The notes beneath the pieces are model-generated. The model was not told where the DNA came from and searched no databases. It saw only the letters and a program-made list of their open reading frames with translations. A stretch of DNA of 64,000 nt from a virus (taxonomy: Duplodnaviria > Caudoviricetes): positions 58,739-122,738 of IMG/VR virus record IMGVR_UViG_3300030376_008775; one strand, given 5' to 3'. Below are positions 2 to 19,283 of the stretch, piece after piece (positions within the stretch are counted from its first letter, which is position 1; every line of letters starts with the position of its first letter). The position numbers and the translations under genes were made by a program.

Positions 2-379
2 GATATTATTCATGAATTTGCACACGCTTTAGAAAGAGAATTTAAAAAAGAAATCTATAGCGATAAATCAATAAGAAATGAATTTTTAAGTAAGCGAAAT
101 CAATTAGAGACAATATTAAGAACATCTGGTTATGATACATTAGGTCATGATTTTGAAAAAAAAGATTATGATCAAATATTTGATGATTTCCTACTGAATA
201 CAGTAGGATATGAAACTTTTAGAAATTTAACAAATCATAGTCTTTTTATTAATCCTTATGCTGCAACTTCTCTAAGAGAATATTTTGCAACTGGATTTGA
301 AGAATATATATTGGGTGATCACAAAGAATTGCAAGTAGTTAGCCCAAAGTTATATAAAAAATTACAAGATATTATATAA
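2..379 (+). CDS. 5'-truncated putative zinc metallopeptidase (HExxH zincin-like)
   Basis: Not in the ORF track. Manual translation from nt 2 gives DIIHEFAHALERE...NPYAATSLREYFATGFEEY...LQDII*. It has HEFAH plus a downstream EYFA Glu; the stop is TAA at 377-379. Confidence 0.6.
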   Translation, partial: DIIHEFAHALEREFKKEIYSDKSIRNEFLSKRNQLETILRTSGYDTLGHDFEKKDYDQIFDDFLLNTVGYETFRNLTNHSLFINPYAATSLREYFATGFEEYILGDHKELQVVSPKLYKKLQDII

Positions 380-1524: not shown

Positions 1525-2784
1525 ATGACAGATAAAAAAATTAAAGTTTTAGTTCTAAGTGACCACCCACTTTCTCCTTCTGGCGTCGGAACTCAAACAA
1601 AATATATGATAGAAAGTTGCCTTAAGACAGGTAAATTTAGTTTTATTTCCCTAGGGGGAGCAATTAAACACCTAGACTATACACCTGTTCAAGTTGAACC
1701 GTACGGCAAAGATTTTGTTATTGTTCCGATTGATGGGTATGGAAACCAGGATATGATAAGATCAGTCCTAAACACCGAGAAACCAGATATGATCTGGTTT
1801 ATGACAGATCCTAGATTCTATACTTGGCTTTGGGAAATTGAAAATGAAATTAGAGCTTTGGTACCTATGGTTTATTATCACGTTTGGGATAACAAACCAT
1901 ATCCTGACTTTAATAAAATTTGGTATGATTCAAACGATTATATTTTTACAATATCAAAAGTTACTGATGATATTGTAAAAAATGTATCACCTAACGTAAA
2001 AAGTACATATTTGCCGCATGCGGTAGATAATCAAATTTTTAAAACTTTAGAAAAACAAGAAGTAATAGATTATATGGATCAGGTGATACCACAATCAAAA
2101 GATAAATTTATGTTCTTCTGGAATAGTAGAAATGCTCGTCGAAAACAAAGTGGATCTTTAATTTTTTGGTTTAATGACTTTTTAAATAAAGTTGGAAAAG
2201 ATAAAGCATGTCTAGTAATGCATACAAATCCAAAAGATCCAAACGGACAAGACTTAAATGCTATTCTGGAAAAGTTAGGTCTTGTTAACGGAGAAGTTGT
2301 ATTTTCTACACAAGCGGTTGATTCAACTCTTTTGGCTAAATTTTATAACAGGGCAGATTGCACTTTGTGTATATCAGATGCAGAAGGCTTTGGCTTATCA
2401 ACTTTAGAATCATTATCTTGCGGTACTCCAATTATTGTTAACATGACTGGAGGCTTGCAAGAGCAAGTTACTGATGGTGAAGAATGGTTTGGAATTGGCC
2501 TAGAGCCTAGTTCTAAAGCAATTATTGGATCTCAAGATGTGCCTTATATATATGAAGATAGAATCAATGGTGAAGAATTTGTAGAAGCGATGTGTAAACT
2601 TTATAATATGTCTGAGCAAGAAAGAGAAGATCTTGGTAAAAAAGGCCAAAATCACGTTAACAAGAACTATAGCTTTACACAATTGGCTGCTAAATGGCCA
2701 ATATTATTAGAAGAAATTCATAATGAAATGGGATCTTGGGAAACTAGAAAAGGATACAAATCAATGGAGTTAATCGAGGTATAA
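1525..2784 (+). CDS. glycosyltransferase family 4 (GT-B)
   Basis: N-terminal SDHP..SGVG, RNARRKQ, and the E-x7-E signature EGFGLSTLE; GGLQEQV. Confidence 0.85.
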   Translation: MTDKKIKVLVLSDHPLSPSGVGTQTKYMIESCLKTGKFSFISLGGAIKHLDYTPVQVEPYGKDFVIVPIDGYGNQDMIRSVLNTEKPDMIWFMTDPRFYTWLWEIENEIRALVPMVYYHVWDNKPYPDFNKIWYDSNDYIFTISKVTDDIVKNVSPNVKSTYLPHAVDNQIFKTLEKQEVIDYMDQVIPQSKDKFMFFWNSRNARRKQSGSLIFWFNDFLNKVGKDKACLVMHTNPKDPNGQDLNAILEKLGLVNGEVVFSTQAVDSTLLAKFYNRADCTLCISDAEGFGLSTLESLSCGTPIIVNMTGGLQEQVTDGEEWFGIGLEPSSKAIIGSQDVPYIYEDRINGEEFVEAMCKLYNMSEQEREDLGKKGQNHVNKNYSFTQLAAKWPILLEEIHNEMGSWETRKGYKSMELIEV

Positions 2785-2785
2785 A

Positions 2786-4060
2786 ATGACAAAAGTATTA
2801 GTAAGAGGACCAGCTTTAACAAGATCCGGATATGGAGAGCATACTCGATTCATATTAAGATCTTTGCGAAAACTAGAAGATAAGATTGATTTATATTTGA
2901 TTCCATTAGCATGGGGTCAAACTGGATGGTTGTCAGTTTCAGATGAAGAAAAGATTTGGCTTGATTCAATTATCAAAAAAACTCATGATTTGGTTTCGAA
3001 AAATCAGTTACAAGTTGATATTTCATTACAGGTGACCATTCCAAACGAATGGGAAAAACTAGCTCCAATTAATATTGGTGTCACAGCTGGAATTGAAACA
3101 ACCAAGATGGCTCCAATATGGGTTGAAAAAAGCAAGATGATGGATCACATTATTGTAACATCTGAATTTGCTAAAAACATTTTTGATACCACTAGTTACG
3201 AGGCAACCGTTAAAGAAACTGGTCAAATTATATCTGATTATCGATGTACAACAGACATTAAAGTAGTCTCTTATCCTGTAAAAGAATTTGAGGATATGGA
3301 TCTAGATCTACAGCTAGAATACGATTTTAATTTCTTAGCAGTAGCACAATGGGGCCCCCGAAAAAATATTGTAAATTGTTTACAGTGGTTTGTTGAGGAG
3401 TTTATTGACCAAGAAGTTGGCCTAGTATTAAAAACTAATATAACTAAAAACTCTTTATTAGATAGGCAAAAAACAAAAACACTATTAAAGAATATCCTTA
3501 ATCAAGACAAATATAAAAATAGAAAATGCAAAGTATATTTGCTTCATGGTGATATGACTGATCAAGAAATGCACCAGCTATATCGTAATTCAAAAATTAA
3601 AGCTTTCGTTTCTACTAGCCATGGCGAGGGTTTTGGTCTTCCTCATTTTGAAGCAGCTTATGAAGGCATGCCTGTTATTGCTCCGGACTGGAGTGGACAT
3701 GTTGATTTTCTCTATATGCCGATTAAAGACAAAAAAGGCAAAACAAAGAAGAAAGCAATGTATTCTAAGATTGATTACGTAATTCAGCCTGTACCGGAGT
3801 CAGCCGTTTGGGAAGGTGTTATTCAAAAAGATTCATCATGGTGTTATCCTGACCAAGGATCTTACAAGATTAAATTAAGAGAACTCTACAAAGATTATGG
3901 AAGGTTTAAAAAACAAGCAACGCAGCTTCAAAAATATTTAAAAGAAAATGTTACATTTGAAAATCAAAGCGGCTTAGTTTGTGAAGTTGTAAATAAATTT
4001 CTTCCCTCAGAAGAAGAATTAGAATGGCTTCAAAAATTAGATGAAATTGAAGTTTTATGA
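2786..4060 (+). CDS. glycosyltransferase family 4 (GT-B)
   Basis: SGYGEH, PRKN, and SHGEGFGLPHFEAA (E-x7-E). Confidence 0.85.
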   Translation: MTKVLVRGPALTRSGYGEHTRFILRSLRKLEDKIDLYLIPLAWGQTGWLSVSDEEKIWLDSIIKKTHDLVSKNQLQVDISLQVTIPNEWEKLAPINIGVTAGIETTKMAPIWVEKSKMMDHIIVTSEFAKNIFDTTSYEATVKETGQIISDYRCTTDIKVVSYPVKEFEDMDLDLQLEYDFNFLAVAQWGPRKNIVNCLQWFVEEFIDQEVGLVLKTNITKNSLLDRQKTKTLLKNILNQDKYKNRKCKVYLLHGDMTDQEMHQLYRNSKIKAFVSTSHGEGFGLPHFEAAYEGMPVIAPDWSGHVDFLYMPIKDKKGKTKKKAMYSKIDYVIQPVPESAVWEGVIQKDSSWCYPDQGSYKIKLRELYKDYGRFKKQATQLQKYLKENVTFENQSGLVCEVVNKFLPSEEELEWLQKLDEIEVL

Positions 4061-4887
4061 AAATAATATTTATAGCTGATTTTTTCAGTAGTGAATTGAA
4101 CGGAGGCGCAGAAAATAACGACTCTGTTTTGATTGATTATTTAAAAAACAATGGCTATAAAATAAGATGTATTAAATCTCATAATTTTGATGAAAGCATT
4201 TATCAAGAAAATGATTTTTTTATCGTAAGCAATTTTGTAGGACTAGATGAAAAATATAAAGCCTTGCTAAAGAAAAAGCAATATATTATTTATGAACATG
4301 ATCATAAATATGTAAAACGTAGAGATGTTAGTAAATATGCTGATTTTGTTATACCTAAAGAAGATTTTGTAAATGAAAAATTTTATAGAGATGCAAAAGC
4401 TGTTGTTGTTTTAAGTGATGTATGTAAAAAAATTCTAGACAAGAATCTTAATACAAGAAATGTTTTTAATATAGGTTGCAGTCTATGGTCTGATAAAAAA
4501 TTAGACTTAATCGCATCTTTATCTACTAAACAAAAAAATAATAAGTTTGCTATTATTAATTCAAACAATCCTATTAAAAATACAAATTTAGCAATTGCAT
4601 ATTGCAAAAAAAATAATATTGATTTTGATATGATAGAGCTTTGTAATCATGAAGAATTACTATCAAAATTATCTGACTATAAAGGTTTAGTATTTTTTCC
4701 TGGCGTTTTAGAGACCTTCTCTAGAATATCTGCGGAAGCAAAAATGCTTAATTGCAAACTGCTAACAAAGCCAAAAATGTTAGGTTTTGCGTCAGAGAAC
4801 ATATTTGCTTTTTCTGGCATTGAGTTAATAGAAGAGATAAGAGAAAGAAATAACAAAGCTTTAAAATTATTCAAGAGTTTATTATGA
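4057..4887 (+). CDS. putative short GT-B glycosyltransferase
   Basis: IIFIADFF..GGAE N-terminus and E-x7-E motif ETFSRISAE; lies in the GT cluster. Confidence 0.6.
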   Translation: MKIIFIADFFSSELNGGAENNDSVLIDYLKNNGYKIRCIKSHNFDESIYQENDFFIVSNFVGLDEKYKALLKKKQYIIYEHDHKYVKRRDVSKYADFVIPKEDFVNEKFYRDAKAVVVLSDVCKKILDKNLNTRNVFNIGCSLWSDKKLDLIASLSTKQKNNKFAIINSNNPIKNTNLAIAYCKKNNIDFDMIELCNHEELLSKLSDYKGLVFFPGVLETFSRISAEAKMLNCKLLTKPKMLGFASENIFAFSGIELIEEIRERNNKALKLFKSLL

Positions 4888-5750
4888 AAAAAATTATTGT
4901 TTTAGCCTCCGATCATAACGGAGTAGAATTAAAAGAAAAAGTAAAAAACTATTTGAAAAAGAAAGATATCCTAGCACTGGATATTGGACCATTTGACACA
5001 AATAAAAAGGTAGATTATGTCGACTATGCTGATCAACTGTCTAAAATCATTTCAAATAAAGACGCGTCACACGGTATTTTAATTTGTGGTACCGGCGTGG
5101 GAATGAGTATTGCTGCAAATAGAAATGAAAATATAAGAGCGGCACTAGTACACAATCAATTTACAGCACCTAGGTGCAGAGAACATAATGATTCAAATGT
5201 TATTTGTCTAGGAGCTTGGATAACGCCTTATCCTCAAGTTGAAGAAATATTAGATTCTTGGCTAGGCACTTCTTTTGGAGAAGGAAGGCACGTAAAAAGA
5301 ATTGAAAAGCTATCTTCAAAACAAGAAGAAATAATTTTTACAAATGGAGTTTTTGATATTATTCACACTGGTCATATCGAGTTATTGACTTTTGCCAAAA
5401 GCTTAGGAAATAAACTTGTAGTCGGTATAAATTCGGATGCAGCAGTTAAAAAAATTAAAGGGGATAACAGGCCAATCAATAATCAAGAAGATAGAAAAAA
5501 GGTTCTAGAATCACTAGGAATGGTTGATCAAGTTGTTATCTTTGATGATATATCCCCAGATAATTTAAGAGAAGAATTATGTCCTAATGTCTTGGTCAAG
5601 GGCGGAGAATGGACTAAAGAAGAGGTGCGTGAAAGAGATAATGTTTCGGATGGCATTAAAATTAAGATTTATCCATTTGTAGAAAATTACTCAACTACTG
5701 ATACTATAAAGAAAATATACGGACTAAAAACGTGGCAAAAAAAGTCTTAA
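4884..5750 (+). CDS. fusion of RpiB/LacAB sugar-phosphate isomerase and HldE/RfaE-domain-II-type nucleotidyltransferase
   Basis: N-half: ASDH, CGTGVGMSIAANR, REHNDSNV, EGRHVKR (RpiB). C-half: FTNGVFDIIHTGH (HxGH), GINSD..VKKIKG..RPIN, LVKGGEW, YSTT. Confidence 0.85.
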   Translation: MKKIIVLASDHNGVELKEKVKNYLKKKDILALDIGPFDTNKKVDYVDYADQLSKIISNKDASHGILICGTGVGMSIAANRNENIRAALVHNQFTAPRCREHNDSNVICLGAWITPYPQVEEILDSWLGTSFGEGRHVKRIEKLSSKQEEIIFTNGVFDIIHTGHIELLTFAKSLGNKLVVGINSDAAVKKIKGDNRPINNQEDRKKVLESLGMVDQVVIFDDISPDNLREELCPNVLVKGGEWTKEEVRERDNVSDGIKIKIYPFVENYSTTDTIKKIYGLKTWQKKS

Positions 5751-6496
5751 TTATAGGTGATACCATAATCGACAAAGATATTGAGCTAAAAGCTATAGGT
5801 TTATCTTTGGAATCTCCGACACTCAAAACAGAAACTCACGCTGAAAGTATTAATTTTGGCGGCGCCGCAAATGTAGCAAAATATGCACATCAATTTGGTC
5901 TTGACGTTACGTTTGCTACAACGATGTCAAAAGAAAGTGAATATCAATATCTTGAAAAATATTCTTTAAAATTATTGAATCTTGATTCAAGTATTGAAAA
6001 CACAAAATCTAGATTTTATATTTCTCATGGTGATGAAAGATATAAATATCTTCAAGTGAACAATACAAATAAGCAAGATCTTTCTGTAGGATTAAATTTA
6101 GATCTTGATAAATTTGATGTGATAGCTTTTTCTGATTATAGGTGCGGATTAATTAATAATGAAATGGTTTTTGACTCTATAAAAAGCAAAGCTAAAACTT
6201 TCGGAGCTTCGCAGATCTCAAGTAAAGAATCAAATTTTGAAAAGTATAGTAAACTAGATTATTTAGTTTGTAATAAAAATGAATCAAAGTCTTTTAAAAG
6301 AAGAAGAAATGTCTTGATAACTCAAGGTAAAGATGGTTGTAAATTGAATAGCGTTACATATCCTGCAATTTCTGTTCCGGAACCAAAAAATTTAATTGGT
6401 GCGGGAGATTGTTTTTATGCATCGTTTTTAGCATACCAAAATCCAATTATGGCAAATAAATGCGCAGCAGAGTATATACGAGGCGATTATGGATAA
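5732..6496 (+). CDS. PfkB/ribokinase-family sugar kinase (HldE/RfaE-domain-I-like)
   Basis: LIIGDTIID, GGAANVA, FSDY, and C-terminal GAGDCF signature. Confidence 0.8.
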   Translation: MAKKVLIIGDTIIDKDIELKAIGLSLESPTLKTETHAESINFGGAANVAKYAHQFGLDVTFATTMSKESEYQYLEKYSLKLLNLDSSIENTKSRFYISHGDERYKYLQVNNTNKQDLSVGLNLDLDKFDVIAFSDYRCGLINNEMVFDSIKSKAKTFGASQISSKESNFEKYSKLDYLVCNKNESKSFKRRRNVLITQGKDGCKLNSVTYPAISVPEPKNLIGAGDCFYASFLAYQNPIMANKCAAEYIRGDYG

Positions 6497-7175
6497 TATA
6501 CAAAAATTAATTGAGGTTAACCAGACACTTATTAAAGAAAAATTGGTTATTTTTACGTGGGGAAATGCTAGCTTTCGTACTTCTTCTAATACTATCTATA
6601 TTAAGCCCTCTGGGGTACCTTTTAAAGATTTAACAGAAGAAAAGATGTCCGAGGTAGCTTTAGGCAGCAAAATGCATTTAAAAGGCAATAAACCATCTGT
6701 CGACACACCTACTCACATTGAACTGTATAATAACTTTTCTAGTGTTAATGCTATAATTCACACACATTCAAAATATTGCACTATATTTGCGCAAGCAAAA
6801 AAAAATATACCATGCTTAGGTACAACGCATGCTGATTATTTTTATGGAGATATTCCGGTAGTCAACGAACTGTCGGCTCAAAAAATTGAACAAAATTATG
6901 AAGAAAACACAGGCGCGCAAATTGCTGAGTATTTTTTAGCCAATAATTTAGATCCTTTGCAAATACCAGCAGCCTTATCTCCTTCTCATGGTGTTTTTGT
7001 ATGGGGACATAACTTAGACCATGCAATTAAAAATGCCATTGTTTTAGAAAATATTGCTGAAATAGCTTACAAAACATTGACTTTGTGTTATAATGATGAC
7101 ATAAAATTTGATCGTATACTTTTAGATAAACATTTTCTAAGAAAACACGGAAGCAAAAAATATTATGGACAATAG
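6489..7175 (+). CDS. araD: L-ribulose-5-phosphate 4-epimerase-like class II aldolase/epimerase
   Basis: FTWGNAS, IKPSGV, KPSVDTPTH, HTHS, GTTHADYFYGDIP, HGVFVWG, C-terminal HFLRKHG..YYGQ. Confidence 0.85.
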   Translation: MDNIQKLIEVNQTLIKEKLVIFTWGNASFRTSSNTIYIKPSGVPFKDLTEEKMSEVALGSKMHLKGNKPSVDTPTHIELYNNFSSVNAIIHTHSKYCTIFAQAKKNIPCLGTTHADYFYGDIPVVNELSAQKIEQNYEENTGAQIAEYFLANNLDPLQIPAALSPSHGVFVWGHNLDHAIKNAIVLENIAEIAYKTLTLCYNDDIKFDRILLDKHFLRKHGSKKYYGQ

Positions 7176-7584
7176 TAAAGAAATAAAATATGGAAGACAA
7201 GAATTGCCTCCAAGATCAAAACCCATTAAAGAAGTAGAAAAGTATTGGGGCAACATGAAAACTCTGTTTGAAAATGATCATTATACGGTCAAAAGAATTT
7301 TTATGAAAAAAAATACACAAAGCAGTATGGAATACCATGTTAAGAAAGAAGAATCTTATTATATTGAATCTGGAATTCTTAAAGTTGGAACTCGAATAGG
7401 TAGAGCTAAAAATACTTCATTTTTGTTGAAGGCCGGCGATATCTTTCATATACCACCCGGGTTTATGCATATGAGAATTGCTGTAGAAGATACTGTTATT
7501 ATTGAATTTTCTACTTTAGATGATGATAGCGATTCACATATCGTTGAAGATGGAAAAACATATAAACACAAAGAGGATTTTTAA
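7165..7584 (+). CDS. cupin (mannose-6-phosphate-isomerase-like)
   Basis: VEKYWG, SMEYHVKKEESYYI, HIPPGFMH, IIEFST cupin motifs. Confidence 0.75.
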   Translation: MDNSKEIKYGRQELPPRSKPIKEVEKYWGNMKTLFENDHYTVKRIFMKKNTQSSMEYHVKKEESYYIESGILKVGTRIGRAKNTSFLLKAGDIFHIPPGFMHMRIAVEDTVIIEFSTLDDDSDSHIVEDGKTYKHKEDF

Positions 7585-8253
7585 ATGAAGTTATTTGCAG
7601 ACACTGCTAATTTAAACGAAATACGAAGCTTGTTAGAAAAAGGAGTTGTACAGGGAATTACTACAAATCCTTCGCTTTTGGCTAAAGAGCCAAAAACAGA
7701 TTTTTATGAACATATACAAAAAATTTGTGATTTATGCAGGGAGTATGATGCTTTGGTTCCAGTTTCAGTAGAAGTCTTTGCGACCGAACCAGACTCTATG
7801 GTATCCCAAGCTTTAGAAATCTATAAGAAGATAGACTATCCCAATATTAATATTAAAATACCAATTGGGTTTCAAGAGCTAAATGTGATTAATAGATTAA
7901 AAAAAGAAGGTATTCGCGTAAACTGCACGTGTTGTTTTACAGATACACAACTGCAACTAGCAGCTCTTTCTGGAGCTAGATATGTTTCTCTTTTTTACAA
8001 TCGTTTGATTGATAATGGCGGAGATCCTTTAGAAATCTTAAAAAGAACACGAAAATTTATTGATGATAATAATTTAGATTGTGAAATAATTGCGGGCTCA
8101 ATTAGAAATCCTTATGACTTAGCAGATTGTTGGGCCCAAGGTTGCCATATTGTTACCGCTGGACACAATGTTATTAAAAAAGCAACACTACATGTTAAAA
8201 CCGATGAGTCTGTTAATGGTTTTCTAAAGGACTTTGCGGAATGGATAAAATAA
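7585..8253 (+). CDS. tal: short-type transaldolase (TalC/FSA family)
   Basis: LFADTA, GITTNPSLL, VSVEV (Glu), NIKIP (Schiff-base Lys), VNCT, YVSLF (Phe as in transaldolases; FSA has Tyr), AGSIRN. Confidence 0.85.
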   Translation: MKLFADTANLNEIRSLLEKGVVQGITTNPSLLAKEPKTDFYEHIQKICDLCREYDALVPVSVEVFATEPDSMVSQALEIYKKIDYPNINIKIPIGFQELNVINRLKKEGIRVNCTCCFTDTQLQLAALSGARYVSLFYNRLIDNGGDPLEILKRTRKFIDDNNLDCEIIAGSIRNPYDLADCWAQGCHIVTAGHNVIKKATLHVKTDESVNGFLKDFAEWIK

Positions 8254-8567
8254 CATATGTATTTGATATTGATGGAACCGTTTGTACACAAACAGATGGA
8301 AGCTATGAAGATGCACAGCCTTTTCAAGAAAGGATTGAAAAAATAAACGAATTATATGATGCCGGCCACACGATCGTATTCCTTACAGCACGAGGAATGG
8401 GAAGATTTAAAAACAATAGAGCGTTGGCCGAATCTAAATTTTGGGCCTTTACAAATCAACAATTAAAATCTTGGGGATTAAAATTTCATAGTCTTTATTT
8501 AGGAAAACCAGCCGCAACTTTATATGTTGATGATAAAGGAATGAGAGACACGGAGTTTTTTAAATAA
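8241..8567 (+). CDS. small HAD-family phosphatase (capsule-biosynthesis phosphatase-like)
   Basis: FDIDGT, FLTARG, GKP..LYVDDK HAD motifs. Confidence 0.85.
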   Translation: MDKITYVFDIDGTVCTQTDGSYEDAQPFQERIEKINELYDAGHTIVFLTARGMGRFKNNRALAESKFWAFTNQQLKSWGLKFHSLYLGKPAATLYVDDKGMRDTEFFK

Positions 8568-8921
8568 ATGAAAATTGATATAAAATTTGTCCCTAAAGGA
8601 TGGGGATTTGAAAAATGGATTGTAAATAATGAAAGATACTGCGGAAAATTACTATACTTAGTAAAAGGAAAAAGGTGTTCTTGGCATTATCATAAATTAA
8701 AAGATGAAGTATTCTATGTACAATCTGGAAAAATTATGTTAAAATATTCGGACCAAGATAATCTAGAAAACGCAAAGCAAGTAATTCTAGAAAAAGGTGA
8801 TAATTTTCATGTTCCGGTTGGCTTAAAACATCAAATGCAAGCACTTGAAGACACAGAGTTGTTTGAGTTTTCAACGCAGCATTTTGATTCTGATAGCCAC
8901 AGGATCATCAAAGGTGATTAA
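8568..8921 (+). CDS. cupin (mannose-6-phosphate-isomerase-like)
   Basis: VPKGWGFEKWI, SWHYHKLKDEVFYV, HVPVGLKH, EFSTQH. Confidence 0.8.
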   Translation: MKIDIKFVPKGWGFEKWIVNNERYCGKLLYLVKGKRCSWHYHKLKDEVFYVQSGKIMLKYSDQDNLENAKQVILEKGDNFHVPVGLKHQMQALEDTELFEFSTQHFDSDSHRIIKGD

Positions 8922-10667
8922 GTGAAGATATTTTATAGCGCTGTTTTTGATAATGAAGGAGTTAGTTCCGATACTTCAAAAGCTCGCGAGCTTGAAAAAT
9001 TAGGACATGATGTCCTATCTTATAATTATAGGGTCAGAGGTGACCAACTAAATGGAAACGCTTTTGTTTCTATCAAAAGAGATGAAGAGATAATATCACT
9101 CTGTAAAAATTGGCAGCCGGATTATATAGTATTTGCAAAATGTAATGGAGTTGATATTCGTGTGTTTCACGAGTGCAAAAAAATAGCTCCTGTTTGCTAT
9201 TGGTTTGCAGATCCATTGGTAACATATTCAAACAATGAATTTTATGAAAAAACAAAAGTAGCTGACATTTTTACGTGTGATAAAAAAAATGTTTTGGAAA
9301 AAGCTAAAACTTTAAATTCTAATTGTTACATAACTTGCGATGGATTTGATAGTATATTAGAAGAGCCAAAAGATGTGCAAAAAGAATATGATGTTACTTT
9401 TATAGGAAATCTCTATGGTGATAGATTAAAAAAAATATCATCTATAGAAAAAGAAGTAACAAATATAACCGATGCATACGGTGAAAAGCATGCTCTTGAG
9501 GTATCGAAAAGTAAAATTAATTTAAATTTTTGTACAAGTGACGGCCCATCAGACAGAGTTTTTAAAGTGTTGGCAGCCGGCGGCTTTCTTTTGACAGATA
9601 ATTGGTCGGATTTTGATGATTACTTTGAAGATGGTAGAGACTTAGTAGTTTATTCTGATTTAAATGATCTAAACAATAAGATTGATTATTTTTTAAAAAA
9701 CCCAAAAGAAAGAGAACGAATCTCTGTGCAAGGATATGAAACAGTTCAGAATTATACCAGAAAAAAATGGGCTGAAAAAACGTGTGAGATATTAAAAACA
9801 ATTCCATCTGATAGAAAACCACACAAGAAAAAGCAAACAATGTTGCTAGCTGGGCCTTGGATTGGAGAATTTGGCTGGGAGTTGTTTTGCTGGCACGGTT
9901 ACTTAAGAAGTATGTCTAAATTTTATGATCGTGTTGTGTGCATATCTTCTCCTCATTCAAAATTTTTATATGAGGATTTTTGTGACAAGTTTATAGATTT
10001 TCTACCTGATGGTGGAGATTATAAAGATTCGTACTATAAGGCTGGGTATGACCTAAACGGCACAGTTATAAACTCAATATTGAAAAAAAACAATATCAAT
10101 ATTGATGAATATAAAACATCATTATTTTTACCAAGAAGAATAGGTGATCCACCAAGAACTCATTTCTCTGAAAAGTTTCAATTTGGTCCTTATTACATTG
10201 GCCCTAAATACAAAAAACTTGGAAATCATAAAGAAAAATACAAAGATGTTATTTTGTTTCATGCGCGCTCTCGCGTCCTTAGAAATGATGATAATTGGCC
10301 AACAGACAATTGGAAAAAATTAGGATCTTTGCTTAAAGAAGATGGGTATGATTTATATTCTGTTGGTTTAAAGTCAGAAGCATTGCATATCGAAGGTACA
10401 GAAGACTTTAGGGAATGTGATCAACAAGAGTTATTAGACTTAATGAATTCTGCAAAATGCATTTTTGGAAATTCATCAGGAGCATTACATCTAGCTTCTC
10501 TATGTGAATGTCCACAAGTCATATGGTCAACTAATTACAATTTGGATAGATATACAAAAAACTGGAATCCTTTTTATACTAACGTAAAATTCTTATCTGA
10601 GATGGGATGGCACCCTAGTATAGAATACGTGTATGAAAGTTTTAAAAACTCAGAGGATATGATATGA
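8922..10667 (+). CDS. two-domain glycosyltransferase (CgeB/Glyco_trans_1_2-like plus GT9 heptosyltransferase-like)
   Basis: N-half: YDVTFIG, SKINLN, DRVFKVLAAGGFLLTD, YFLKNPKERERI. C-half: AGPWIGEFGWEL, NWPTDNW, FGNSSGALHLASLC. Confidence 0.7.
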   Translation: MKIFYSAVFDNEGVSSDTSKARELEKLGHDVLSYNYRVRGDQLNGNAFVSIKRDEEIISLCKNWQPDYIVFAKCNGVDIRVFHECKKIAPVCYWFADPLVTYSNNEFYEKTKVADIFTCDKKNVLEKAKTLNSNCYITCDGFDSILEEPKDVQKEYDVTFIGNLYGDRLKKISSIEKEVTNITDAYGEKHALEVSKSKINLNFCTSDGPSDRVFKVLAAGGFLLTDNWSDFDDYFEDGRDLVVYSDLNDLNNKIDYFLKNPKERERISVQGYETVQNYTRKKWAEKTCEILKTIPSDRKPHKKKQTMLLAGPWIGEFGWELFCWHGYLRSMSKFYDRVVCISSPHSKFLYEDFCDKFIDFLPDGGDYKDSYYKAGYDLNGTVINSILKKNNINIDEYKTSLFLPRRIGDPPRTHFSEKFQFGPYYIGPKYKKLGNHKEKYKDVILFHARSRVLRNDDNWPTDNWKKLGSLLKEDGYDLYSVGLKSEALHIEGTEDFRECDQQELLDLMNSAKCIFGNSSGALHLASLCECPQVIWSTNYNLDRYTKNWNPFYTNVKFLSEMGWHPSIEYVYESFKNSEDMI

Positions 10668-12157
10668 AATCAATATGTTTAATAACCCCTCCTTCGCCCT
10701 TTTTGCTAGATGAAAGAGTCTTTATGCATATTGGCATATTAAAAGTTGCGTCTTCTTTAGAACAACAAGGATATAAGGTAGAATTTTTAGACCTAAGTGG
10801 GATTGAAAATTTTTTAGATGTAGTTAAAGACTACTGTGATAAAAGTAATGTTAAAACTTTTGGTTTGACTGCCTCAACGCCTCAAGTTCCTTTTGCTGTA
10901 CAGATTGCAAGCGTAATCAAAAACGTTGATTCTTCTAATCGATTAATTCTTGGAGGCCCACATGTTACGTTAATGAATACAGCTAGCAAGAGAGAGAAAA
11001 GAAAAGGTCTAGAAAAATCTGATCGCGCAACTAGAGATGTTGAAAATCTAAAAAATATATTTGATATTCTTGTTTGCGGCGATGGGGAATATGCAATTTT
11101 TGATGCACTTAAATTAGAAAAAGGAATTGTCGATGCTGATGATAGAAAAAGCAATTTGTTTTTAAATAATGAACAATTTTCAAAACTTCCTCTTCCTGCT
11201 AGGCATCTATTAGACGTTGACTCTTATAAATATACAATAGAAGGCAGAAGATCGGTAAGTTTAATCGCACAACTTGGTTGTCCTTTCCAGTGCACTTTTT
11301 GTAGCGGTAGAAATTCTCCGTTTTTAAGAAAAATTAGACAAAGAGATAGTGACTCGATTGTAGAAGAGATGAGACATCTTTATCACCAGTATGGTTTTAC
11401 GGGTTTCATGTTTTATGATGATGAACTAAATGTTAACAAAAGTTTAATTCAACTTCTAAATAAAATTACAGATTTACAATCGGAGGTAGGAGAAGAGTTT
11501 CGGCTTCGTGGATTTGTAAAAGCAGAATTGTTTAATGAGCAGCAGGCAGAAGCTATGTATAGGGCCGGCTTTAGATGGCTTTTAACAGGTTTTGAGTCTG
11601 GCGATGAACGAGTGCTTAAAAACATCAAGAAGATGGCTACAAGGGACGATAACACGCGCGCTGTGGAGATAGCAAAAAAACATAATTTAAAAGTTAAAGC
11701 TTTGATGTCTATTGGCCATGCAGGAGAAAGTCATAAATCTATTGAAAATACAAAGAATTGGCTTCTAGAGGTGGAACCAGAAGAATTTGATTGTACAATT
11801 ATTACAACATATCCTGGCTCACCTTATTTTGATGATGCTGTAAAAGAAAATAATTATTATACCTATACATCTAAAGTAACTGGTGATAAACTATACCAGT
11901 CGACAATTGATTATTTGTCAGAATTAGATTATTATAAGGGTGATCCAAATGGTGGATACATATCTTATGTATGGACTGATCATATTTCAGCAGTTGATTT
12001 AGTAAAAGAAAGAGATAAACTAGAAAATGAAGTTAGAAGTAAACTAGAAATTCCCTTTTATGATGCACGTCCAGCTGCAAAGTACGAACATTCAATGGGT
12101 ATGGGAAATATTGAAATACCGGAATATATTTTAAGAAAAACAAAAAATAAAAAATAA
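10664..12157 (+). CDS. cobalamin-binding radical SAM enzyme (class B methyltransferase-like)
   Basis: N-terminal B12-binding region (LILGGPHVT, GDGE), CPFQCTFC, FYDDELN, GFESG, YPGSP. Confidence 0.85.
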   Translation: MKSICLITPPSPFLLDERVFMHIGILKVASSLEQQGYKVEFLDLSGIENFLDVVKDYCDKSNVKTFGLTASTPQVPFAVQIASVIKNVDSSNRLILGGPHVTLMNTASKREKRKGLEKSDRATRDVENLKNIFDILVCGDGEYAIFDALKLEKGIVDADDRKSNLFLNNEQFSKLPLPARHLLDVDSYKYTIEGRRSVSLIAQLGCPFQCTFCSGRNSPFLRKIRQRDSDSIVEEMRHLYHQYGFTGFMFYDDELNVNKSLIQLLNKITDLQSEVGEEFRLRGFVKAELFNEQQAEAMYRAGFRWLLTGFESGDERVLKNIKKMATRDDNTRAVEIAKKHNLKVKALMSIGHAGESHKSIENTKNWLLEVEPEEFDCTIITTYPGSPYFDDAVKENNYYTYTSKVTGDKLYQSTIDYLSELDYYKGDPNGGYISYVWTDHISAVDLVKERDKLENEVRSKLEIPFYDARPAAKYEHSMGMGNIEIPEYILRKTKNKK

Positions 12158-17406: not shown

Positions 17407-17591
17407 ATTTTGAGATTGGAGATTTAGTAGAATGGACAGAACTAATTGGCGACGGCCTTTTAGTTAAAGATCGTGGACTAGGAATTGTAGTTAAAAAAGT
17501 TGGTAACTTTTACAAAGTTCATCGAGCAATTAAACAAGATATTATAAACTTCAACATAAATGAGATAAAAAAAATTAATGAAAATGTATAA
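17388..17591 (+). CDS. small hypothetical protein (SH3/KOW-like)
   Basis: FEIGDLV..GLGIVV; overlaps both neighbouring genes. Confidence 0.5.
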   Translation: MDERNLNFEIGDLVEWTELIGDGLLVKDRGLGIVVKKVGNFYKVHRAIKQDIINFNINEIKKINENV

Positions 17592-18420
17592 AATTGGAAT
17601 AATTGGAAATGGATTTGTAGGATCTGCTATAGCGGCCGGCTTTGGACTGCACACAAATGTATCTATATATGACGTGTCACCAGAAAAAAGTCTCAATTCT
17701 TTTGAAGAAACAATAACAGCAGATTTTGTTTTTGTTTCTGTGCCAACTCCAATGAGTTTAAAGAAAAAAAACGAGATTGATTTAAGTATTATTGTCTCTG
17801 TTTTCAAAAAAATATCCGAGTTTAAAAATCTAAACAAAGATACAATTTTTATTCTTAAATCAACGGTGGTTCCACAAACGACGTTAGAGTTGTCTAAACA
17901 ATTCCCTAATCTAAACATTGTTTTCAATCCAGAGTTTTTAACTGAAAGATCAGCTAGATTAGATTTTATTAATGCTTCTAGGATTGTTATAGGAGGACCA
18001 CAACATCTTTGTGATAGAGTTGAAAACTTGTATCGTATTAGGTTTCCACATACAAAAATCATCAAGACAGATAGTTGCACAGCAGAATTTATAAAATATC
18101 TTTGTAATACTTTTTTTGCTACGAAAGTTAGTTTTATGAATGAGATGAAACAAATAAGTGATAAACTAAATTTAGACTGGGACAAGGCAATGGATGGATT
18201 TATTTCTGATGGTAGAATAGGAAATTCACACTTAGATGTTCCTGGTCATGATGGTAGTCCTGGATTCGGCGGAAAATGTTTTCCTAAAGATATCAATGCT
18301 TTGATAAATTTTTGTAAAAAAAATAATATAGATCCAAAAATTTTAATTGCTGCTTGGGAAAAAAATCTAGAGGTCCGTAATAACCACGATTGGAATAGTA
18401 TCGAGGGAGCAACAAGTTGA
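17578..18420 (+). CDS. UDP-glucose/GDP-mannose dehydrogenase family, lacking the C-terminal domain
   Basis: IGIIGNGFVG, VSVPTP, KSTVVP, FNPEFLTE, AEFIKY..N, GFGGKCFPKD. Confidence 0.85.
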   Translation: MKMYKIGIIGNGFVGSAIAAGFGLHTNVSIYDVSPEKSLNSFEETITADFVFVSVPTPMSLKKKNEIDLSIIVSVFKKISEFKNLNKDTIFILKSTVVPQTTLELSKQFPNLNIVFNPEFLTERSARLDFINASRIVIGGPQHLCDRVENLYRIRFPHTKIIKTDSCTAEFIKYLCNTFFATKVSFMNEMKQISDKLNLDWDKAMDGFISDGRIGNSHLDVPGHDGSPGFGGKCFPKDINALINFCKKNNIDPKILIAAWEKNLEVRNNHDWNSIEGATS

Positions 18421-19283
18421 GAGTTATAGTTACTGGCGGCGAAGGATTTGTAGGGTCAAACCTTATTAAACACTTAGTTCAACAAGATGAGATCCACAGC
18501 GTTTTTAGCTTGGACAATCAATTTACTAGCAGTAAAGACAATATAGTTCATAATAAAAAAGTAAGGTATTGGACTGGCTCCACTACCAGTATCAATAGAA
18601 TTTTAATGAATTGGGATGTAGATGCTGTTTTTCATTTTGGAGAATACTCAAGAATTGATCCTAGTTTTGATGATCTTGATGATGTATTTAACTATAATAT
18701 GAAGGGTACCTGGGAAGTAATACAATATTGCAAAAAAAAGAAAATACCTATGATATACTCGGGCTCAAGCAGTAAATTTGGCCACGATAAAAATCAACAT
18801 TTATCTCCGTATGCCTGGACAAAAGCAAAAAATACAGAGATAATTAAAAATTTTTCTGATTGGTTCGGCTTAGAATATAAGATTTTATATTTTCATAATG
18901 TGTATGGCCCCGGACAAATAATGGAAGGAAAATACGCAACAGTTATAGGAATTTTTGAAAAACAAGTAGAAAATGATAAGCCAATAACAGTAGTTTCACC
19001 CGGTTCTCAGAGAAGAGATTTTACGCATGTTGATGATATCGTTGATGGAATTTGGAAAGCGTATAAGAATGCACCTCCGAATACAGAATTTAGCCTAGGC
19101 ACAGGCACAAACTATTCTATTATGGAAATAGCTGAAGCATTTGACCATACTATTGAAGTAATACCCTCAAAAAGAGGCGAACGAAACACTTCTTTAGCCG
19201 ACATAGAAAATACTACAAAAGTCTTAAAATGGCGTCCTACAATCGACGTCATCGAATACATTAAAAACAAAAGGAGAAAATAA
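18417..19283 (+). CDS. NAD-dependent sugar epimerase/dehydratase (extended SDR)
   Basis: VTGGEGFVG, YSGSSS, SPYAWTK (YxxxK), FHNVYGP, RRDFTHVDD. Confidence 0.9.
   Translation: MRVIVTGGEGFVGSNLIKHLVQQDEIHSVFSLDNQFTSSKDNIVHNKKVRYWTGSTTSINRILMNWDVDAVFHFGEYSRIDPSFDDLDDVFNYNMKGTWEVIQYCKKKKIPMIYSGSSSKFGHDKNQHLSPYAWTKAKNTEIIKNFSDWFGLEYKILYFHNVYGPGQIMEGKYATVIGIFEKQVENDKPITVVSPGSQRRDFTHVDDIVDGIWKAYKNAPPNTEFSLGTGTNYSIMEIAEAFDHTIEVIPSKRGERNTSLADIENTTKVLKWRPTIDVIEYIKNKRRK

What the first reader, a model, noticed from the sequence alone, without database searches (positions are those of the whole stretch)
4884..10667. Phage operon that looks like a GmhA-independent higher-carbon (heptose/octose) nucleotide-sugar pathway
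Seen, contiguous and overlapping or abutting: RpiB-nucleotidyltransferase fusion, HldE-like kinase, AraD-like epimerase, cupin, transaldolase, HAD phosphatase, second cupin, then a GT with a GT9 (heptosyltransferase-like) half. Established: ADP-heptose synthesis uses isomerase, kinase, phosphatase and nucleotidyltransferase steps, and the lincomycin octose pathway adds a transaldolase to build the C8 chain first. No GmhA/SIS isomerase is visible in the window. Inference: transaldolase with RpiB/AraD-supplied pentose phosphates builds a C7/C8 ketose of possibly unusual stereochemistry, a cupin or RpiB isomerises it, and it is activated for the adjacent GT. The transaldolase would then be biosynthetic rather than the usual pentose-phosphate auxiliary gene.
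Basis: partly seen in the sequence, partly recalled or inferred. Interest (0 to 1): 0.8.

Follow-up and report, generated by a model that had tools for sequence, protein, structure and literature searches.

The report
Phage operon for unusual activated sugar
An uncultured marine T4-like phage carries a tightly packed, widely conserved but undescribed set of soluble enzymes that most likely builds and nucleotide-activates a seven- or eight-carbon sugar without the usual first and third enzymes of the heptose pathway; which sugar it makes cannot be settled from sequence.

Summary
Window 4884-10667 is eight overlapping or abutting genes: RpiB fused to an HldC-like nucleotidyltransferase (NT), an HldA-like kinase, AraD, a cupin (cupinA), a transaldolase, a 108-aa HAD phosphatase, a second cupin (cupinB) and a two-part glycosyltransferase.

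The cassette recurs in 31 other contigs, all viral or phage-like. A search seeded only with the transaldolase recovered the whole set in 28 of 31 loci; two more are cut off by contig ends.

Four near-complete relatives have no GmhA/SIS isomerase, transketolase, Rpe or ThyA-family enzyme. Each has one transaldolase, inside the cassette.

Kinase, NT and the GT9-like half point to an ADP-heptose-type route with GmhA and GmhB replaced. Cyanophages carry a simpler NT/kinase/HAD/cupin module beside an HldD-like epimerase. Some phages carry both sets, so this cassette probably makes a different sugar.

An octose built from ribose-5-phosphate by the transaldolase is my best single guess (about 0.35). 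A heptose (0.25) and a pentofuranose (0.18) remain open. The HAD's only characterised relatives are arabinose-1,5-bisphosphate phosphatases, and RpiB and AraD look canonical.

This scan has flagged the same cassette on other DNA several times. I found no paper describing it.

The parts
4884..5750 (+). RpiB (residues 5-147) fused to an HldC/HldE-domain-II-like nucleotidyltransferase (residues 141-279)
   Evidence: Invariant D10, H11, C68, H101, N102, R135, H136 and R139 across 14 fusion-family members. HxGH motif seen in the translation. Best solved relatives are RpiB 3he8 (6e-30) and HldC 5x9q (1.7e-29).
5732..6496 (+). HldA-like PfkB-family sugar-phosphate (anomeric) kinase
   Evidence: A profile of 13 orthologues has as best solved relative 4e84, D-beta-D-heptose-7-phosphate kinase, at 2.3e-18 over the full length. 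The next hit is 2.9e-11 and covers only the C-terminal part. GG, NxxE and GAGD motifs are invariant.
6489..7175 (+). AraD-type L-ribulose-5-phosphate 4-epimerase (class II aldolase fold)
   Evidence: NF006047 263 bits, above its cut-off of 257. The metal histidines, the HADYFYG motif and the C-terminal KYYGQ are present. Present at 43% identity or more in 21 of the 31 other contigs. A divergent class II aldolase takes its place in 6, and 4 have none.
7165..7584 (+). cupinA: small metal-site cupin resembling type II mannose-6-phosphate isomerase; candidate ketose-phosphate to aldose-phosphate isomerase
   Evidence: PF01050 29.9 bits, above the 23.6 threshold. Invariant H58, E63, H102, K43, K61 and D123. 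AF2 model has pLDDT 87. Fold hits are generic cupins, including CapF, Thermococcus PMI and D-lyxose isomerase. Always adjacent to the transaldolase.
7585..8253 (+). Short (TalC-type) transaldolase
   Evidence: PF00923 4.2e-45. Invariant D6, E63, K91, N113, S135, F137 and R140. By my knowledge of TalB versus FSA, Glu63 plus Phe137 mark a transaldolase rather than a fructose-6-phosphate aldolase. Single copy per genome and inside the cassette.
8241..8567 (+). 108-aa cap-less HAD phosphatase (TIGR01689 / AfhF family); candidate terminal-phosphate phosphatase standing in for GmhB
   Evidence: DxDGT, T49, K89 and DD motifs are present. Best solved relatives are 9iqw (1.4e-13) and 1xpj. It is 36-41% identical over its full length to the HAD of arabinosyl-5-hydroxycytosine phages DLP3, LC53 and Maestro, and 48-57% identical to cyanophage homologues.
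8568..8921 (+). cupinB: orthologue of the cupin in the cyanomyophage NT/kinase/HAD/cupin module
   Evidence: 64-70% amino-acid identity to P-SSM2 and P-TIM68, and 66-72% nucleotide identity. An accessory part of the cassette, present in about a third of loci.
8922..10667 (+). Two-part glycosyltransferase: Glyco_trans_1_2 N-terminal half and GT9-like (heptosyltransferase-like) C-terminal half
   Evidence: Full-length orthologues follow the mini-HAD in L029 and L037, where GT9 scores 24.1 and 26.8 bits, above the threshold of 22. Partial (N-terminal-half) matches follow it in L031-33 and L035. The two halves are separate genes flanking the cassette in L050-52.
1525..4887 (+). Conserved upstream block: two GT4-family glycosyltransferases and a 276-aa protein of unknown family
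   Evidence: The same block (PD-(D/E)XK nuclease, GT4, GT4, u276) precedes the cassette in L004, L007, L029-L033, L035 and L037.
18417..19283 (+). SDR nucleotide-sugar epimerase/dehydratase-family protein in the same island; a possible but unproven tailoring enzyme
   Evidence: In NCBIfam heptose_epim scores 94.8 bits against GalE at 88, so the two are not discriminated.

Best explanation
The operon is a self-contained, fully soluble route to a nucleotide-activated, probably ADP-linked, non-standard sugar of seven or eight carbons. The sugar is then used by the flanking glycosyltransferases, most plausibly on a cytoplasmic acceptor such as virion proteins.

Proposed logic. The family assignments are shown; the substrates are inferred.
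1. The transaldolase builds a ketose phosphate by moving a C3 unit from fructose-6-P or sedoheptulose-7-P onto an aldose phosphate. My best guess for the acceptor is ribose-5-P kept available by RpiB, which gives octulose-8-P as LmbR does in lincomycin synthesis. The alternative is erythrose-4-P, which gives sedoheptulose-7-P.
2. The neighbouring PMI-like cupinA isomerises the ketose phosphate to the aldose phosphate. This is GmhA's job.
3. The HldA-like kinase phosphorylates the anomeric position.
4. The mini-HAD removes the terminal phosphate. This is GmhB's job.
5. The HldC-like NT fused to RpiB makes the NDP-sugar.
6. A GT9-like transferase uses it.

cupinB, possibly together with the mini-HAD, belongs to or is shared with the simpler cyanophage-type module, which looks like a true heptose route.

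AraD looks like a real L-ribulose-5-P/D-xylulose-5-P epimerase. Its place in the route is unresolved. It may supply a stereochemically different pentose-phosphate acceptor.
For: Conservation:
- The cassette is found in 31 other contigs (30 IMG/VR viral contigs and one phage-like MAG contig). A transaldolase-only seed recovered RpiB-NT, kinase, cupinA, Tal and mini-HAD in 28 of 31 loci. Two more (L043, L046) are cut off by contig ends and one (L056) is a distant 29%-identity Tal without the fusion.

Heptose-pathway likeness:
- Kinase profile: best solved relative is the heptose-7-P kinase HldA, 4e84, at 2.3e-18 over the full length.
- NT: best solved relative is HldC, 5x9q, at 1.7e-29; TIGR02199 scores 160 bits.
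- GT9 scores above the Pfam threshold in two orthologous GTs, and the GT9-like half is linked to the cassette even where it is a separate gene.

Replacement of GmhA:
- No SIS or SIS_2 domain in the contig or in four 93-100% complete relatives.

The transaldolase is dedicated:
- One copy per genome, always next to cupinA. No phage transketolase or Rpe.
- Only 30-34% identical to cyanophage TalC.
- Catalytic residues are those of a transaldolase.

RpiB is integral to the pathway:
- It is fused to the NT here, and it is fused independently to a non-homologous NTP_transferase in the cyanophages Bellamy and SynMITS9220M01, beside a PfkB-like kinase and a HAD.

The simpler cyanophage module looks like a heptose route:
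- Its adjacent SDR is specifically HldD-like, TIGR02197 185-210 bits, with the next family below 55 bits.
- P-SSM2, P-TIM68 and S-CAM1 have no GmhA.

The product probably differs from that heptose:
- L030 and L031/32 carry both sets in one phage. Paralogue identities are 46-48% for the NTs, 37-38% for the cupins and 24-25% for the kinases.

Soluble acceptor:
- No protein between window positions 1 and 19283 has a transmembrane segment. The one clear membrane ORF in the scan lies just beyond the sugar genes at 19720-20115.
- No ThyA-family enzyme in the contig or the relatives.

Precedent for a transaldolase acting on ribose-5-P: LmbR, as described in PMC5854111 citing Sasaki et al. 2012.
Against: - No chemistry exists. 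Every substrate is inferred.
- RpiB and AraD are canonical in all catalytic and phosphate-binding residues. AraD has no role in either the octose or the heptose scheme.
- The only characterised relatives of the mini-HAD dephosphorylate a pentofuranose-1,5-bisphosphate (PMC13326640).
- The kinase scores far below the HldE equivalog cut-off, 64 against 345 bits.
- The cupin fold search cannot separate an isomerase from a CapF-type NDP-sugar epimerase.
- Octoses are very rare in known glycans (my knowledge).
- A host GmhA could in principle supply heptose-7-P.
Confidence: 0.6

Rival explanations
1. Pentofuranose route. RpiB and the cupin together convert abundant ribose-5-P through ribulose-5-P to arabinose-5-P, or AraD plus an isomerase gives an L-pentose-5-P. 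The kinase, mini-HAD and NT then make an NDP-pentofuranose, as RB69-, DLP3- and HY126-type phages do with API, AfhE and AfhF. The transaldolase only tops up pentose phosphates.
For: - The mini-HAD is 36-41% identical over its full length to the HAD of arabinosyl-5-hydroxycytosine phages. That enzyme's characterised form, AfhF, removes the 5-phosphate of arabinofuranose-1,5-bisphosphate (PMC13326640).
- RpiB passes the RpiB equivalog cut-off and AraD passes its subfamily cut-off. Both keep canonical residues.
- Independent RpiB-NT fusions sit with a kinase, a HAD and a small cupin but no transaldolase in Bellamy and SynMITS9220M01.
Against: - Kinase, NT and GT are heptose-type.
- The NT is as HldC-like as the NT of the heptose-type module, 160 against 151 bits.
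- The transaldolase is strictly conserved inside the cassette, while no transketolase or Rpe is encoded.
- The sister module has an HldD-like epimerase, which has no target in a pentose.
- No ThyA-family base-modifying enzyme is present, so the known use of phage NDP-arabinose does not apply.
Confidence: 0.18
2. Ordinary heptose with supply genes. [quoted passage not shown] Tal, RpiB and AraD are auxiliary metabolic genes that raise the sedoheptulose-7-P supply in a heterotrophic host.
For: - Heptose markers.
- The cyanophage module manages without Tal, RpiB or AraD. Its hosts run the Calvin cycle, which makes sedoheptulose-7-P (my knowledge).
- Transaldolase is a well-known auxiliary gene of marine phages; it is present in 502 phage records.
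Against: - The RpiB fusion to the NT arose twice.
- Phages with both sets keep two kinases, two NTs and two cupins. That is redundant if both make the same heptose.
- AraD cannot feed sedoheptulose-7-P.
- No transketolase is encoded.
Confidence: 0.15
3. The cupins are not isomerases but metal-dependent NDP-sugar epimerases, as in the CapF/WbuC type. RpiB is the only aldose/ketose isomerase. The pathway then starts from an RpiB product and the sugar is tailored after activation.
For: - The top fold hit of the cupinA model is the cupin domain of CapF.
- cupinB has a weak WbuC-family hit.
- Cupins often sit next to SDR enzymes in the cyanophage modules.
Against: - P-SSM2, S-CAM1 and P-TIM68 have the cupin but neither RpiB nor GmhA. 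Without a cupin isomerase that module has no isomerase at all.
- 8 of 11 family members match the type II mannose-6-phosphate isomerase model.
- cupinA is always adjacent to the transaldolase, not to an SDR.
Confidence: 0.07

Closest known systems
ADP-L-glycero-beta-D-manno-heptose pathway (GmhA; HldE or HldA + HldC; GmhB; HldD) with GT9 heptosyltransferases
   Same: The four-step logic of isomerase, anomeric kinase, terminal phosphatase and nucleotidyltransferase. The kinase is homologous to HldA and the NT to HldC. A GT9-like transferase sits next door. The sister module in cyanophages has an HldD-like epimerase.
   Different: There is no GmhA; a PMI-like cupin or RpiB takes its place. There is no GmhB; an AfhF-family mini-HAD takes its place. 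The NT is fused to RpiB rather than to the kinase. A transaldolase and AraD are built into the operon. Kinase and NT both score below the equivalog cut-offs.
Lincomycin methylthiolincosamide octose pathway (LmbR transaldolase, LmbN isomerase, LmbP kinase, LmbK phosphatase, LmbO nucleotidyltransferase)
   Same: It starts with a transaldolase that adds a C3 unit to ribose-5-P, followed by isomerase, kinase, phosphatase and NT. With RpiB supplying ribose-5-P, this is the only known scheme that gives every core gene here a direct role.
   Different: By my knowledge of the Lmb proteins, only the transaldolase step could be homologous. The isomerase, kinase, phosphatase and NT here belong to other families. 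The product would be ADP-linked rather than GDP-linked. The setting is a phage glycan island, not an antibiotic cluster.
UDP-D-arabinofuranose pathway of arabinosyl-5-hydroxycytosine phages (arabinose-5-P isomerase, AfhE kinase/NT, AfhF phosphatase; RB69, DLP3, HY126)
   Same: Phage-encoded, with the same four-step logic. The phosphatase is a true homologue of the mini-HAD here.
   Different: The isomerase (SIS), kinase (APH-like) and NT (NTP_transferase) belong to other families. There is no transaldolase, AraD or cupin. That pathway serves DNA modification and needs a ThyA-family 5-hydroxycytosine synthase, which is absent here.
Cyanomyophage 'LPS' module (P-SSM2 309-313, S-CAM1 216-220, P-TIM68 191-196)
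   Same: Orthologous mini-HAD (48-57% identity) and cupinB (64-70%). Homologous NT and kinase. Also lies beside tail-fibre genes.
   Different: It lacks RpiB, AraD, cupinA and the transaldolase. It has an HldD-like SDR and often a carbamoyltransferase. Its kinase is only about 27% identical to the one here.
Cyanophage TalC auxiliary metabolic gene
   Same: The same short transaldolase subfamily with the same catalytic residues.
   Different: Only 30-34% identical. Here it is embedded in a sugar-activation operon and is the sole copy in the genome.

Membership tests
ADP-heptose pathway | GmhA (SIS_2) sedoheptulose-7-P isomerase | tested here: not met
   No PF13580 or PF01380 match in the 122.7-kb contig or in four 93-100% complete related phage genomes, while control genomes gave matches.
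ADP-heptose pathway | HldE domain I / HldA heptose-7-P kinase | tested here: inconclusive
   The best solved relative of the family profile is HldA 4e84, at 2.3e-18 over the full length. TIGR02198 scores only 64 bits against a cut-off of 345.
ADP-heptose pathway | GmhB (HAD-IIIA) heptose-1,7-bisphosphate phosphatase | tested here: not met
   The phosphatase is a 108-aa TIGR01689-type mini-HAD. HAD-IIIA scores 25.9 bits against a cut-off of 44.6. Its nearest relatives are 9iqw, 1xpj and the HAD of the arabinosyl-DNA phages.
ADP-heptose pathway | HldE domain II / HldC heptose-1-P adenylyltransferase | tested here: inconclusive
   TIGR02199 scores 160 bits against a cut-off of 181.5. The best solved relative is HldC 5x9q at 1.7e-29. 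It is 42.5% identical to Salmonella RfaE domain II.
ADP-heptose pathway | HldD ADP-heptose 6-epimerase | tested here: not met
   The SDR at window 18417-19283 scores 94.8 bits for heptose_epim and 88 for GalE, so it is not specific. The SDRs of the cyanophage sister module score 185-210 bits specifically for heptose_epim.
GT9 heptosyltransferases | Match to PF01075 above the gathering score | tested here: inconclusive
   The window protein scores 18.2 bits, below the threshold of 22. Orthologues in L029 and L037 score 24.1 and 26.8 bits. TIGR02193 gives 1.4e-4.
Lincomycin-type octose pathway | Transaldolase that accepts ribose-5-P | not testable with these tools
   A catalytically intact transaldolase is present. 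Acceptor specificity cannot be read from sequence.
Lincomycin-type octose pathway | SIS isomerase, GHMP kinase, GmhB-like phosphatase and NTP_transferase-type NT (LmbN/P/K/O) | tested here: not met
   The families found here are cupin/RpiB, PfkB, mini-HAD and cytidylyltransferase-like. The Lmb family assignments come from my own knowledge.
Phage UDP-arabinofuranose pathway (API/AfhE/AfhF) | AfhF-family HAD phosphatase | tested here: met
   36-41% identity over 92-98% of the length to the HADs of DLP3, LC53, Maestro and JS98-type phages. Function of the family is taken from PMC13326640. I did not verify that PDB entry 9iqw is AfhF.
Phage UDP-arabinofuranose pathway (API/AfhE/AfhF) | SIS arabinose-5-P isomerase, and a ThyA-family 5-hydroxycytosine synthase as the user of the sugar | tested here: not met
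   No SIS domain. No PF00303 match in the contig or in four near-complete relatives.
RpiB ribose-5-phosphate isomerase | Equivalog score and catalytic residues | tested here: met
   TIGR01120 scores 144.5 bits, above its cut-off of 138.65. D10, H11, C68, H101, N102, R135, H136 and R139 are invariant in both fusion families.
AraD L-ribulose-5-phosphate 4-epimerase | Family score and catalytic motifs | tested here: met
   NF006047 scores 263 bits, above its cut-off of 257. TIGR00760 scores 238.5 bits, below its cut-off of 389. The metal histidines, HADYFYG and the C-terminal YYGQ are present. Residue roles come from my knowledge of E. coli AraD.

The most novel reading that the evidence does not exclude
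The cassette is an ADP-octose pathway. RpiB supplies ribose-5-P. The transaldolase extends it to octulose-8-P. A PMI-like cupin, an HldA-like kinase, an AfhF-like phosphatase and an HldC-like NT turn this into an ADP-activated eight-carbon sugar. GT9-like enzymes then attach it to the phage's own tail proteins. This would be the first octose glycan route outside lincosamide antibiotics, and it would be widespread in marine T4-like phages.
Probability: 0.3. Interest if true: 0.85.

Novelty: new variant of a known kind. Interest (0 to 1): 0.6.

Why it matters
If the reading holds, abundant marine T4-like phages carry their own complete factory for a rare activated sugar.

- Two textbook steps, those of GmhA and GmhB, are done by unrelated enzymes.
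- A transaldolase, usually read in phages as a pentose-phosphate auxiliary gene, is used as a chain-building enzyme.
- This would change how transaldolase, RpiB and 'rfaE' hits in viromes are interpreted.
- It would correct long-standing mis-annotations in cyanophage reference genomes.
- It would add new isomerase and phosphatase families to heptose and octose biochemistry.
- It would give a concrete donor sugar for the suspected glycosylation of phage tails.

Related modules occur in cultured cyanophages (P-SSM2, S-CAM1, Bellamy, SynMITS9220M01), so the idea can be tested directly.

Tried and rejected
- **DNA-sugar hypermodification of the RB69 type.** Rejected. No ThyA-family enzyme was found in the contig or in four near-complete relatives.
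- **Lipid-linked O-antigen assembly.** Unlikely. No protein between window positions 1 and 19283 has a transmembrane segment; the one clear membrane ORF (19720-20115) lies just beyond the sugar genes. No flippase, polymerase or priming transferase appeared in the family searches.
- **Fructose-6-phosphate aldolase (FSA) rather than transaldolase.** Rejected on the invariant Glu63 and Phe137 (residue rule from my knowledge).
- **RpiB as a sedoheptulose-7-P isomerase replacing GmhA.** Considered unlikely because the phosphate-binding and catalytic residues are fully canonical. Not excluded.
- **Fold search of the cupinA model.** It gave only generic cupin hits and could not assign a reaction. A profile search of solved structures was equally weak.
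- **Cellular homologues of cupinB in 185,579 species genomes.** Only five MAG contigs were found. Four of the five MAGs also hold homologues of this phage's baseplate wedge protein (44-48% identical and near full length in three, only weak partial matches in one). For two of them (the loci L022 and L024) the homologue lies on the same contig as the module. These are therefore probably binned phage DNA. I could not confirm a cellular distribution.
- **A first genome scan with an 11-sequence cupin alignment.** It failed for lack of a conserved stretch.
- **The look-up of encoding contigs.** Neighbourhoods of the more than 2,700 metagenomic homologues of the fusion could not be read.
- **Literature searches.** None found a paper on this cassette.

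Full report
**What is there**

The window is the last 64 kb of a 122,738-bp linear IMG/VR virus record that CheckV rates 68% complete. Between 4884 and 10667 lie eight plus-strand genes that overlap by 8-19 nt or abut.

- RpiB is fused to a cytidylyltransferase-fold NT. RpiB scores 144.5 bits on the TIGR01120 equivalog, above its cut-off of 138.65. The NT scores 160 bits on rfaE_dom_II against a cut-off of 181.5.
- A PfkB kinase follows.
- AraD scores 263 bits on NF006047, above its cut-off of 257.
- cupinA passes Pfam's threshold for the type II mannose-6-phosphate isomerase domain.
- The transaldolase is of the short type.
- The HAD is 108 aa and of the TIGR01689 type.
- cupinB is a second cupin.
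- The 581-aa glycosyltransferase has a C-terminal half that resembles GT9 only weakly in this copy (18.2 bits).

Reading the translations and the family alignments shows intact catalytic motifs in all of them:
- RpiB keeps D10, H11, C68, H101, N102, R135, H136 and R139.
- AraD keeps the metal histidines, HADYFYG and the C-terminal YYGQ.
- The transaldolase keeps K91 with E63 and F137. By my knowledge of TalB and FSA this is the transaldolase pattern, not the fructose-6-phosphate-aldolase pattern.
- The HAD keeps DxDGT, T, K and DD.
- The kinase keeps GG, NxxE and GAGD.

**Context**

The operon sits in an 18-kb island of soluble sugar enzymes directly upstream of tail and baseplate genes. The island holds two GT4 transferases, a B12-radical SAM enzyme, FabH, an acyltransferase, a dioxygenase, a DegT-like protein, Gmd and SDR enzymes.

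No protein between window positions 1 and 19283 has a transmembrane segment. The one clear membrane ORF in the scan (19720-20115) lies just beyond the sugar genes.

The phage is only distantly T4-like. Its baseplate wedge protein is 32-34% identical to those of Microcystis phage Mel-JY01 and Flavobacterium phage immuto.

**Conservation**

A search seeded with the RpiB-NT fusion found nine viral contigs with the same gene order.

An independent search seeded only with an alignment of the transaldolase found 31 loci. The results break down as follows:
- 28 loci carry RpiB-NT, kinase, cupinA, transaldolase and mini-HAD.
- Two more (L043, L046) hold parts of the cassette but are cut off by contig ends.
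- One (L056) is a distant transaldolase at 29% identity with a mini-HAD but no fusion.
- cupinA and the transaldolase are adjacent wherever cupinA is present.

Counting distinct contigs, I have 31 besides the window: 30 IMG/VR viral contigs and one phage-like MAG contig.
- A true AraD (43% identity or more) is present in 21. A divergent class II aldolase is present in 6. None is present in 4.
- cupinB is present in about a third.
- Full-length orthologues of the GT follow the mini-HAD in L029 and L037. Partial matches follow it in L031-33 and L035.
- In L050-52 the two halves of the GT are separate genes flanking the cassette.
- The GT9 match passes Pfam's threshold in the L029 and L037 orthologues, at 24.1 and 26.8 bits.
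- The upstream block of GT4, GT4 and a 276-aa unknown is also conserved in L004, L007, L029-L033, L035 and L037.

The fusion has more than 2,700 metagenomic homologues. The best 120 are all fusions. Some variants carry two NT domains. No cultured phage in the collection has this fusion.

**Is it GmhA-independent?**

No SIS or SIS_2 domain occurs in the contig or in four related phage genomes rated 93-100% complete. Control genomes gave matches.

The same genomes lack Rpe, transketolase and ThyA-family enzymes. Each has exactly one transaldolase, the one in the cassette.

So the phages chose RpiB, AraD and the transaldolase specifically. They do not make a sugar for RB69-type DNA modification.

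**What the parts resemble**

- A profile of the kinases hits HldA, the D-beta-D-heptose-7-phosphate kinase (4e84), over its full length at 2.3e-18. Ribokinases follow at 1e-10 or weaker and match only the C-terminal part.
- The NT's best solved relative is Burkholderia HldC, 5x9q.
- The mini-HAD is unrelated to GmhB. Its best solved relative is 9iqw, followed by 1xpj.
- The mini-HAD is 36-41% identical over its full length to the HAD of phages that arabinosylate 5-hydroxycytosine: DLP3, LC53, Maestro and the JS98 group. Its characterised form, AfhF, removes the 5-phosphate of arabinofuranose-1,5-bisphosphate (PMC13326640).
- The two cupins are paralogues (36% identical) sharing an (H/E)xH...E...H metal site and invariant lysines.
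- 8 of 11 cupin family members match the type II phosphomannose isomerase model.
- The AF2 model of cupinA is confident (pLDDT 87). Its fold neighbours are generic cupins: CapF, cysteine-dioxygenase-like YubC, KdgF, Thermococcus PMI and D-lyxose isomerase. Atlas neighbours are mostly viral cupin/PMI/lyxose-isomerase-like clusters.

**The sister module in cyanophages**

The mini-HAD and cupinB are 48-70% identical to genes of cultured cyanomyophages, and 66-72% identical at the nucleotide level.

In P-SSM2, S-CAM1 and P-TIM68 these genes form a module of a stand-alone HldC-like NT, an HldA-like kinase, the mini-HAD, a cupin and an SDR.

RefSeq labels the mini-HAD 'phosphoheptose isomerase' and the cupin 'cysteine dioxygenase'. 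Both labels look wrong.

The SDR is specifically HldD-like. TIGR02197 scores 185-210 bits and the next family scores below 55. These phages have no GmhA.

HldD acts on the side-chain carbon that only heptoses (or longer sugars) have. This five-gene module is therefore best read as an ADP-L,D-heptose-type pathway in which a cupin replaces GmhA and the mini-HAD replaces GmhB.

**Two further observations bear on the cassette in the window**

First, the cyanophages Bellamy and SynMITS9220M01 encode an independent fusion of RpiB to a non-homologous NTP_transferase. It is annotated 'phosphatase'. It lies beside a PfkB-like kinase, a HAD and, in Bellamy, a small cupin. A class II aldolase and a mini-HAD lie nearby. 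RpiB has thus been welded to a sugar-activating NT twice, so it is an integral part of such routes and not a stray metabolic gene.

Second, contigs L030 and L031/32 carry both sets in a row. RpiB-NT, kinase, AraD, cupinA, transaldolase and mini-HAD are followed by a second NT (rfaE_dom_II 151 bits in L031), a second and much more HldE-like kinase (rfaE_dom_I 140-153 bits) and cupinB. Within one phage the paralogues are 46-48% identical for the NTs, 37-38% for the cupins and 24-25% for the kinases. The second kinase of L031 is 42.5% identical to that of P-SSM2.

Keeping two full sets argues that the cassette with RpiB and transaldolase makes a different sugar from the simple heptose module. The pattern of a conserved NT, a diverged isomerase and a strongly diverged kinase is what I would expect if the ring end of the sugar is similar and the phosphorylated tail differs. 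This last step is inference.

**Mechanism**

I commit to the following. The family assignments are shown; the substrates are inferred.
1. The transaldolase makes a ketose phosphate.
2. cupinA isomerises it.
3. The HldA-like kinase phosphorylates the anomeric position.
4. The mini-HAD removes the terminal phosphate.
5. The HldC-like NT makes an ADP-type sugar.
6. A GT9-like transferase uses it.

The only known scheme that gives RpiB, the transaldolase and a second isomerase each a direct role is the lincomycin one. There LmbR adds a C3 unit to ribose-5-P to give octulose-8-P, followed by isomerase, kinase, phosphatase and NT (PMC5854111, citing Sasaki et al. 2012).

My probabilities for the sugar made:
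- Octose: about 0.35.
- Heptose, standard or a stereo-variant: about 0.25.
- Pentofuranose: about 0.18.
- Something else: the rest.

AraD is canonical and nearly core, yet it fits none of the higher-carbon schemes cleanly. It may provide an L-configured pentose phosphate. This is the main unexplained piece.

The acceptor is probably soluble, because none of the island's enzymes is a membrane protein. I did not test that.

**Distribution caveat**

Earlier notes of this scan describe the cassette as shared with small archaea, CPR bacteria and SAR11.

My one scan of species genomes found only five MAG contigs. Four of the five MAGs also hold homologues of this phage's baseplate wedge protein. In three of them these are 44-48% identical and near full length. 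In the fourth they are weak partial matches at 25-32% identity. For two of the loci (L022 and L024) the homologue lies on the same contig as the module.

The hits I could check therefore look like phage DNA binned into MAGs. I cannot speak for loci I did not see.

**Novelty and standing**

The same cassette has been flagged repeatedly by this scan on other genomes, with similar conclusions. I reached mine before reading those notes, and they are not independent evidence.

I found no paper describing the cassette. The pelagimyophage survey only mentions 'rfaE' and glycosyltransferases in the hypervariable region (PMC7029224).

I class it as a new variant of a known kind of pathway. It is of real interest to glycobiology and phage ecology, but everything beyond family assignment and synteny remains to be shown at the bench.

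Noticed in passing
L059:6489-7646 (Synechococcus phage Bellamy gene 206) and L019:5632-6789 (SynMITS9220M01_192): Genes annotated 'phosphatase' are fusions of an NTP_transferase (PF00483) to RpiB. They sit beside a PfkB-like kinase, a HAD and, in Bellamy (gene 207), a small cupin. This is an independent RpiB-nucleotidyltransferase fusion in phages that can be cultured.
   Followed up: partly
L001:7986-8667; L002:6911-7680; L020:6822-7482: RefSeq cyanophage records label the 102-114-aa mini-HAD 'phosphoheptose isomerase' and the small cupin 'cysteine dioxygenase' or 'putative nucleotidyltransferase'. Motifs and family hits indicate a HAD phosphatase and a PMI-like cupin.
   Followed up: partly
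L030:7995-9480; L031:8801-10311: Some phages carry a second NT, a second more HldE-like kinase and cupinB directly after the RpiB/transaldolase cassette. These are two parallel sugar-activation sets that apparently share one mini-HAD.
   Followed up: yes
L021, L022, L024, L025 (MAG contigs labelled Woesearchaeota, Pelagibacter TMED166, Bacteriovoracaceae, Verrucomicrobiales): Three of these MAGs (Pelagibacter TMED166, Bacteriovoracaceae, Woesearchaeota) hold 44-48% identical, near full-length homologues of this phage's baseplate wedge protein. The Verrucomicrobiales MAG has only weak partial matches. For L022 and L024 the homologue is on the same contig as the module. They are probably phage contigs binned into cellular MAGs.
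   Followed up: partly
window 10664-12157: A B12-binding radical SAM enzyme overlaps the end of the glycosyltransferase by 4 nt. A 65%-identical orthologue lies just upstream of the cassette in L005/L006. It is a candidate sugar C-methylase or other tailoring enzyme.
   Followed up: no
window 15851-16441 and 17578-18420: The DegT-like ORF is only 196 aa and the UDP-glucose/GDP-mannose dehydrogenase-like ORF only 280 aa. Both are much shorter than typical family members and may be truncated or split.
   Followed up: no
L058:1282-1929 and 5848-7233 (Synechococcus phage S-CAM9): The talC gene lies about 600 bp upstream of that phage's glycan cluster. Gene gp067 is a HAD_2 plus NTP_transferase fusion.
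   Followed up: no
P0002, P0008, P0051 (metagenomic homologues of the fusion): Longer variants (441-469 aa) carry RpiB together with two cytidylyltransferase-like NT domains, in the order RpiB-NT-NT or NT-RpiB-NT.
   Followed up: partly
window 2-379: An ORF that is open at its 5' end has zinc-metallopeptidase-like matches (Peptidase_M90, and the ATLF family exactly at its threshold). It is conserved upstream of the PD-(D/E)XK nuclease in L007/L034.
   Followed up: no
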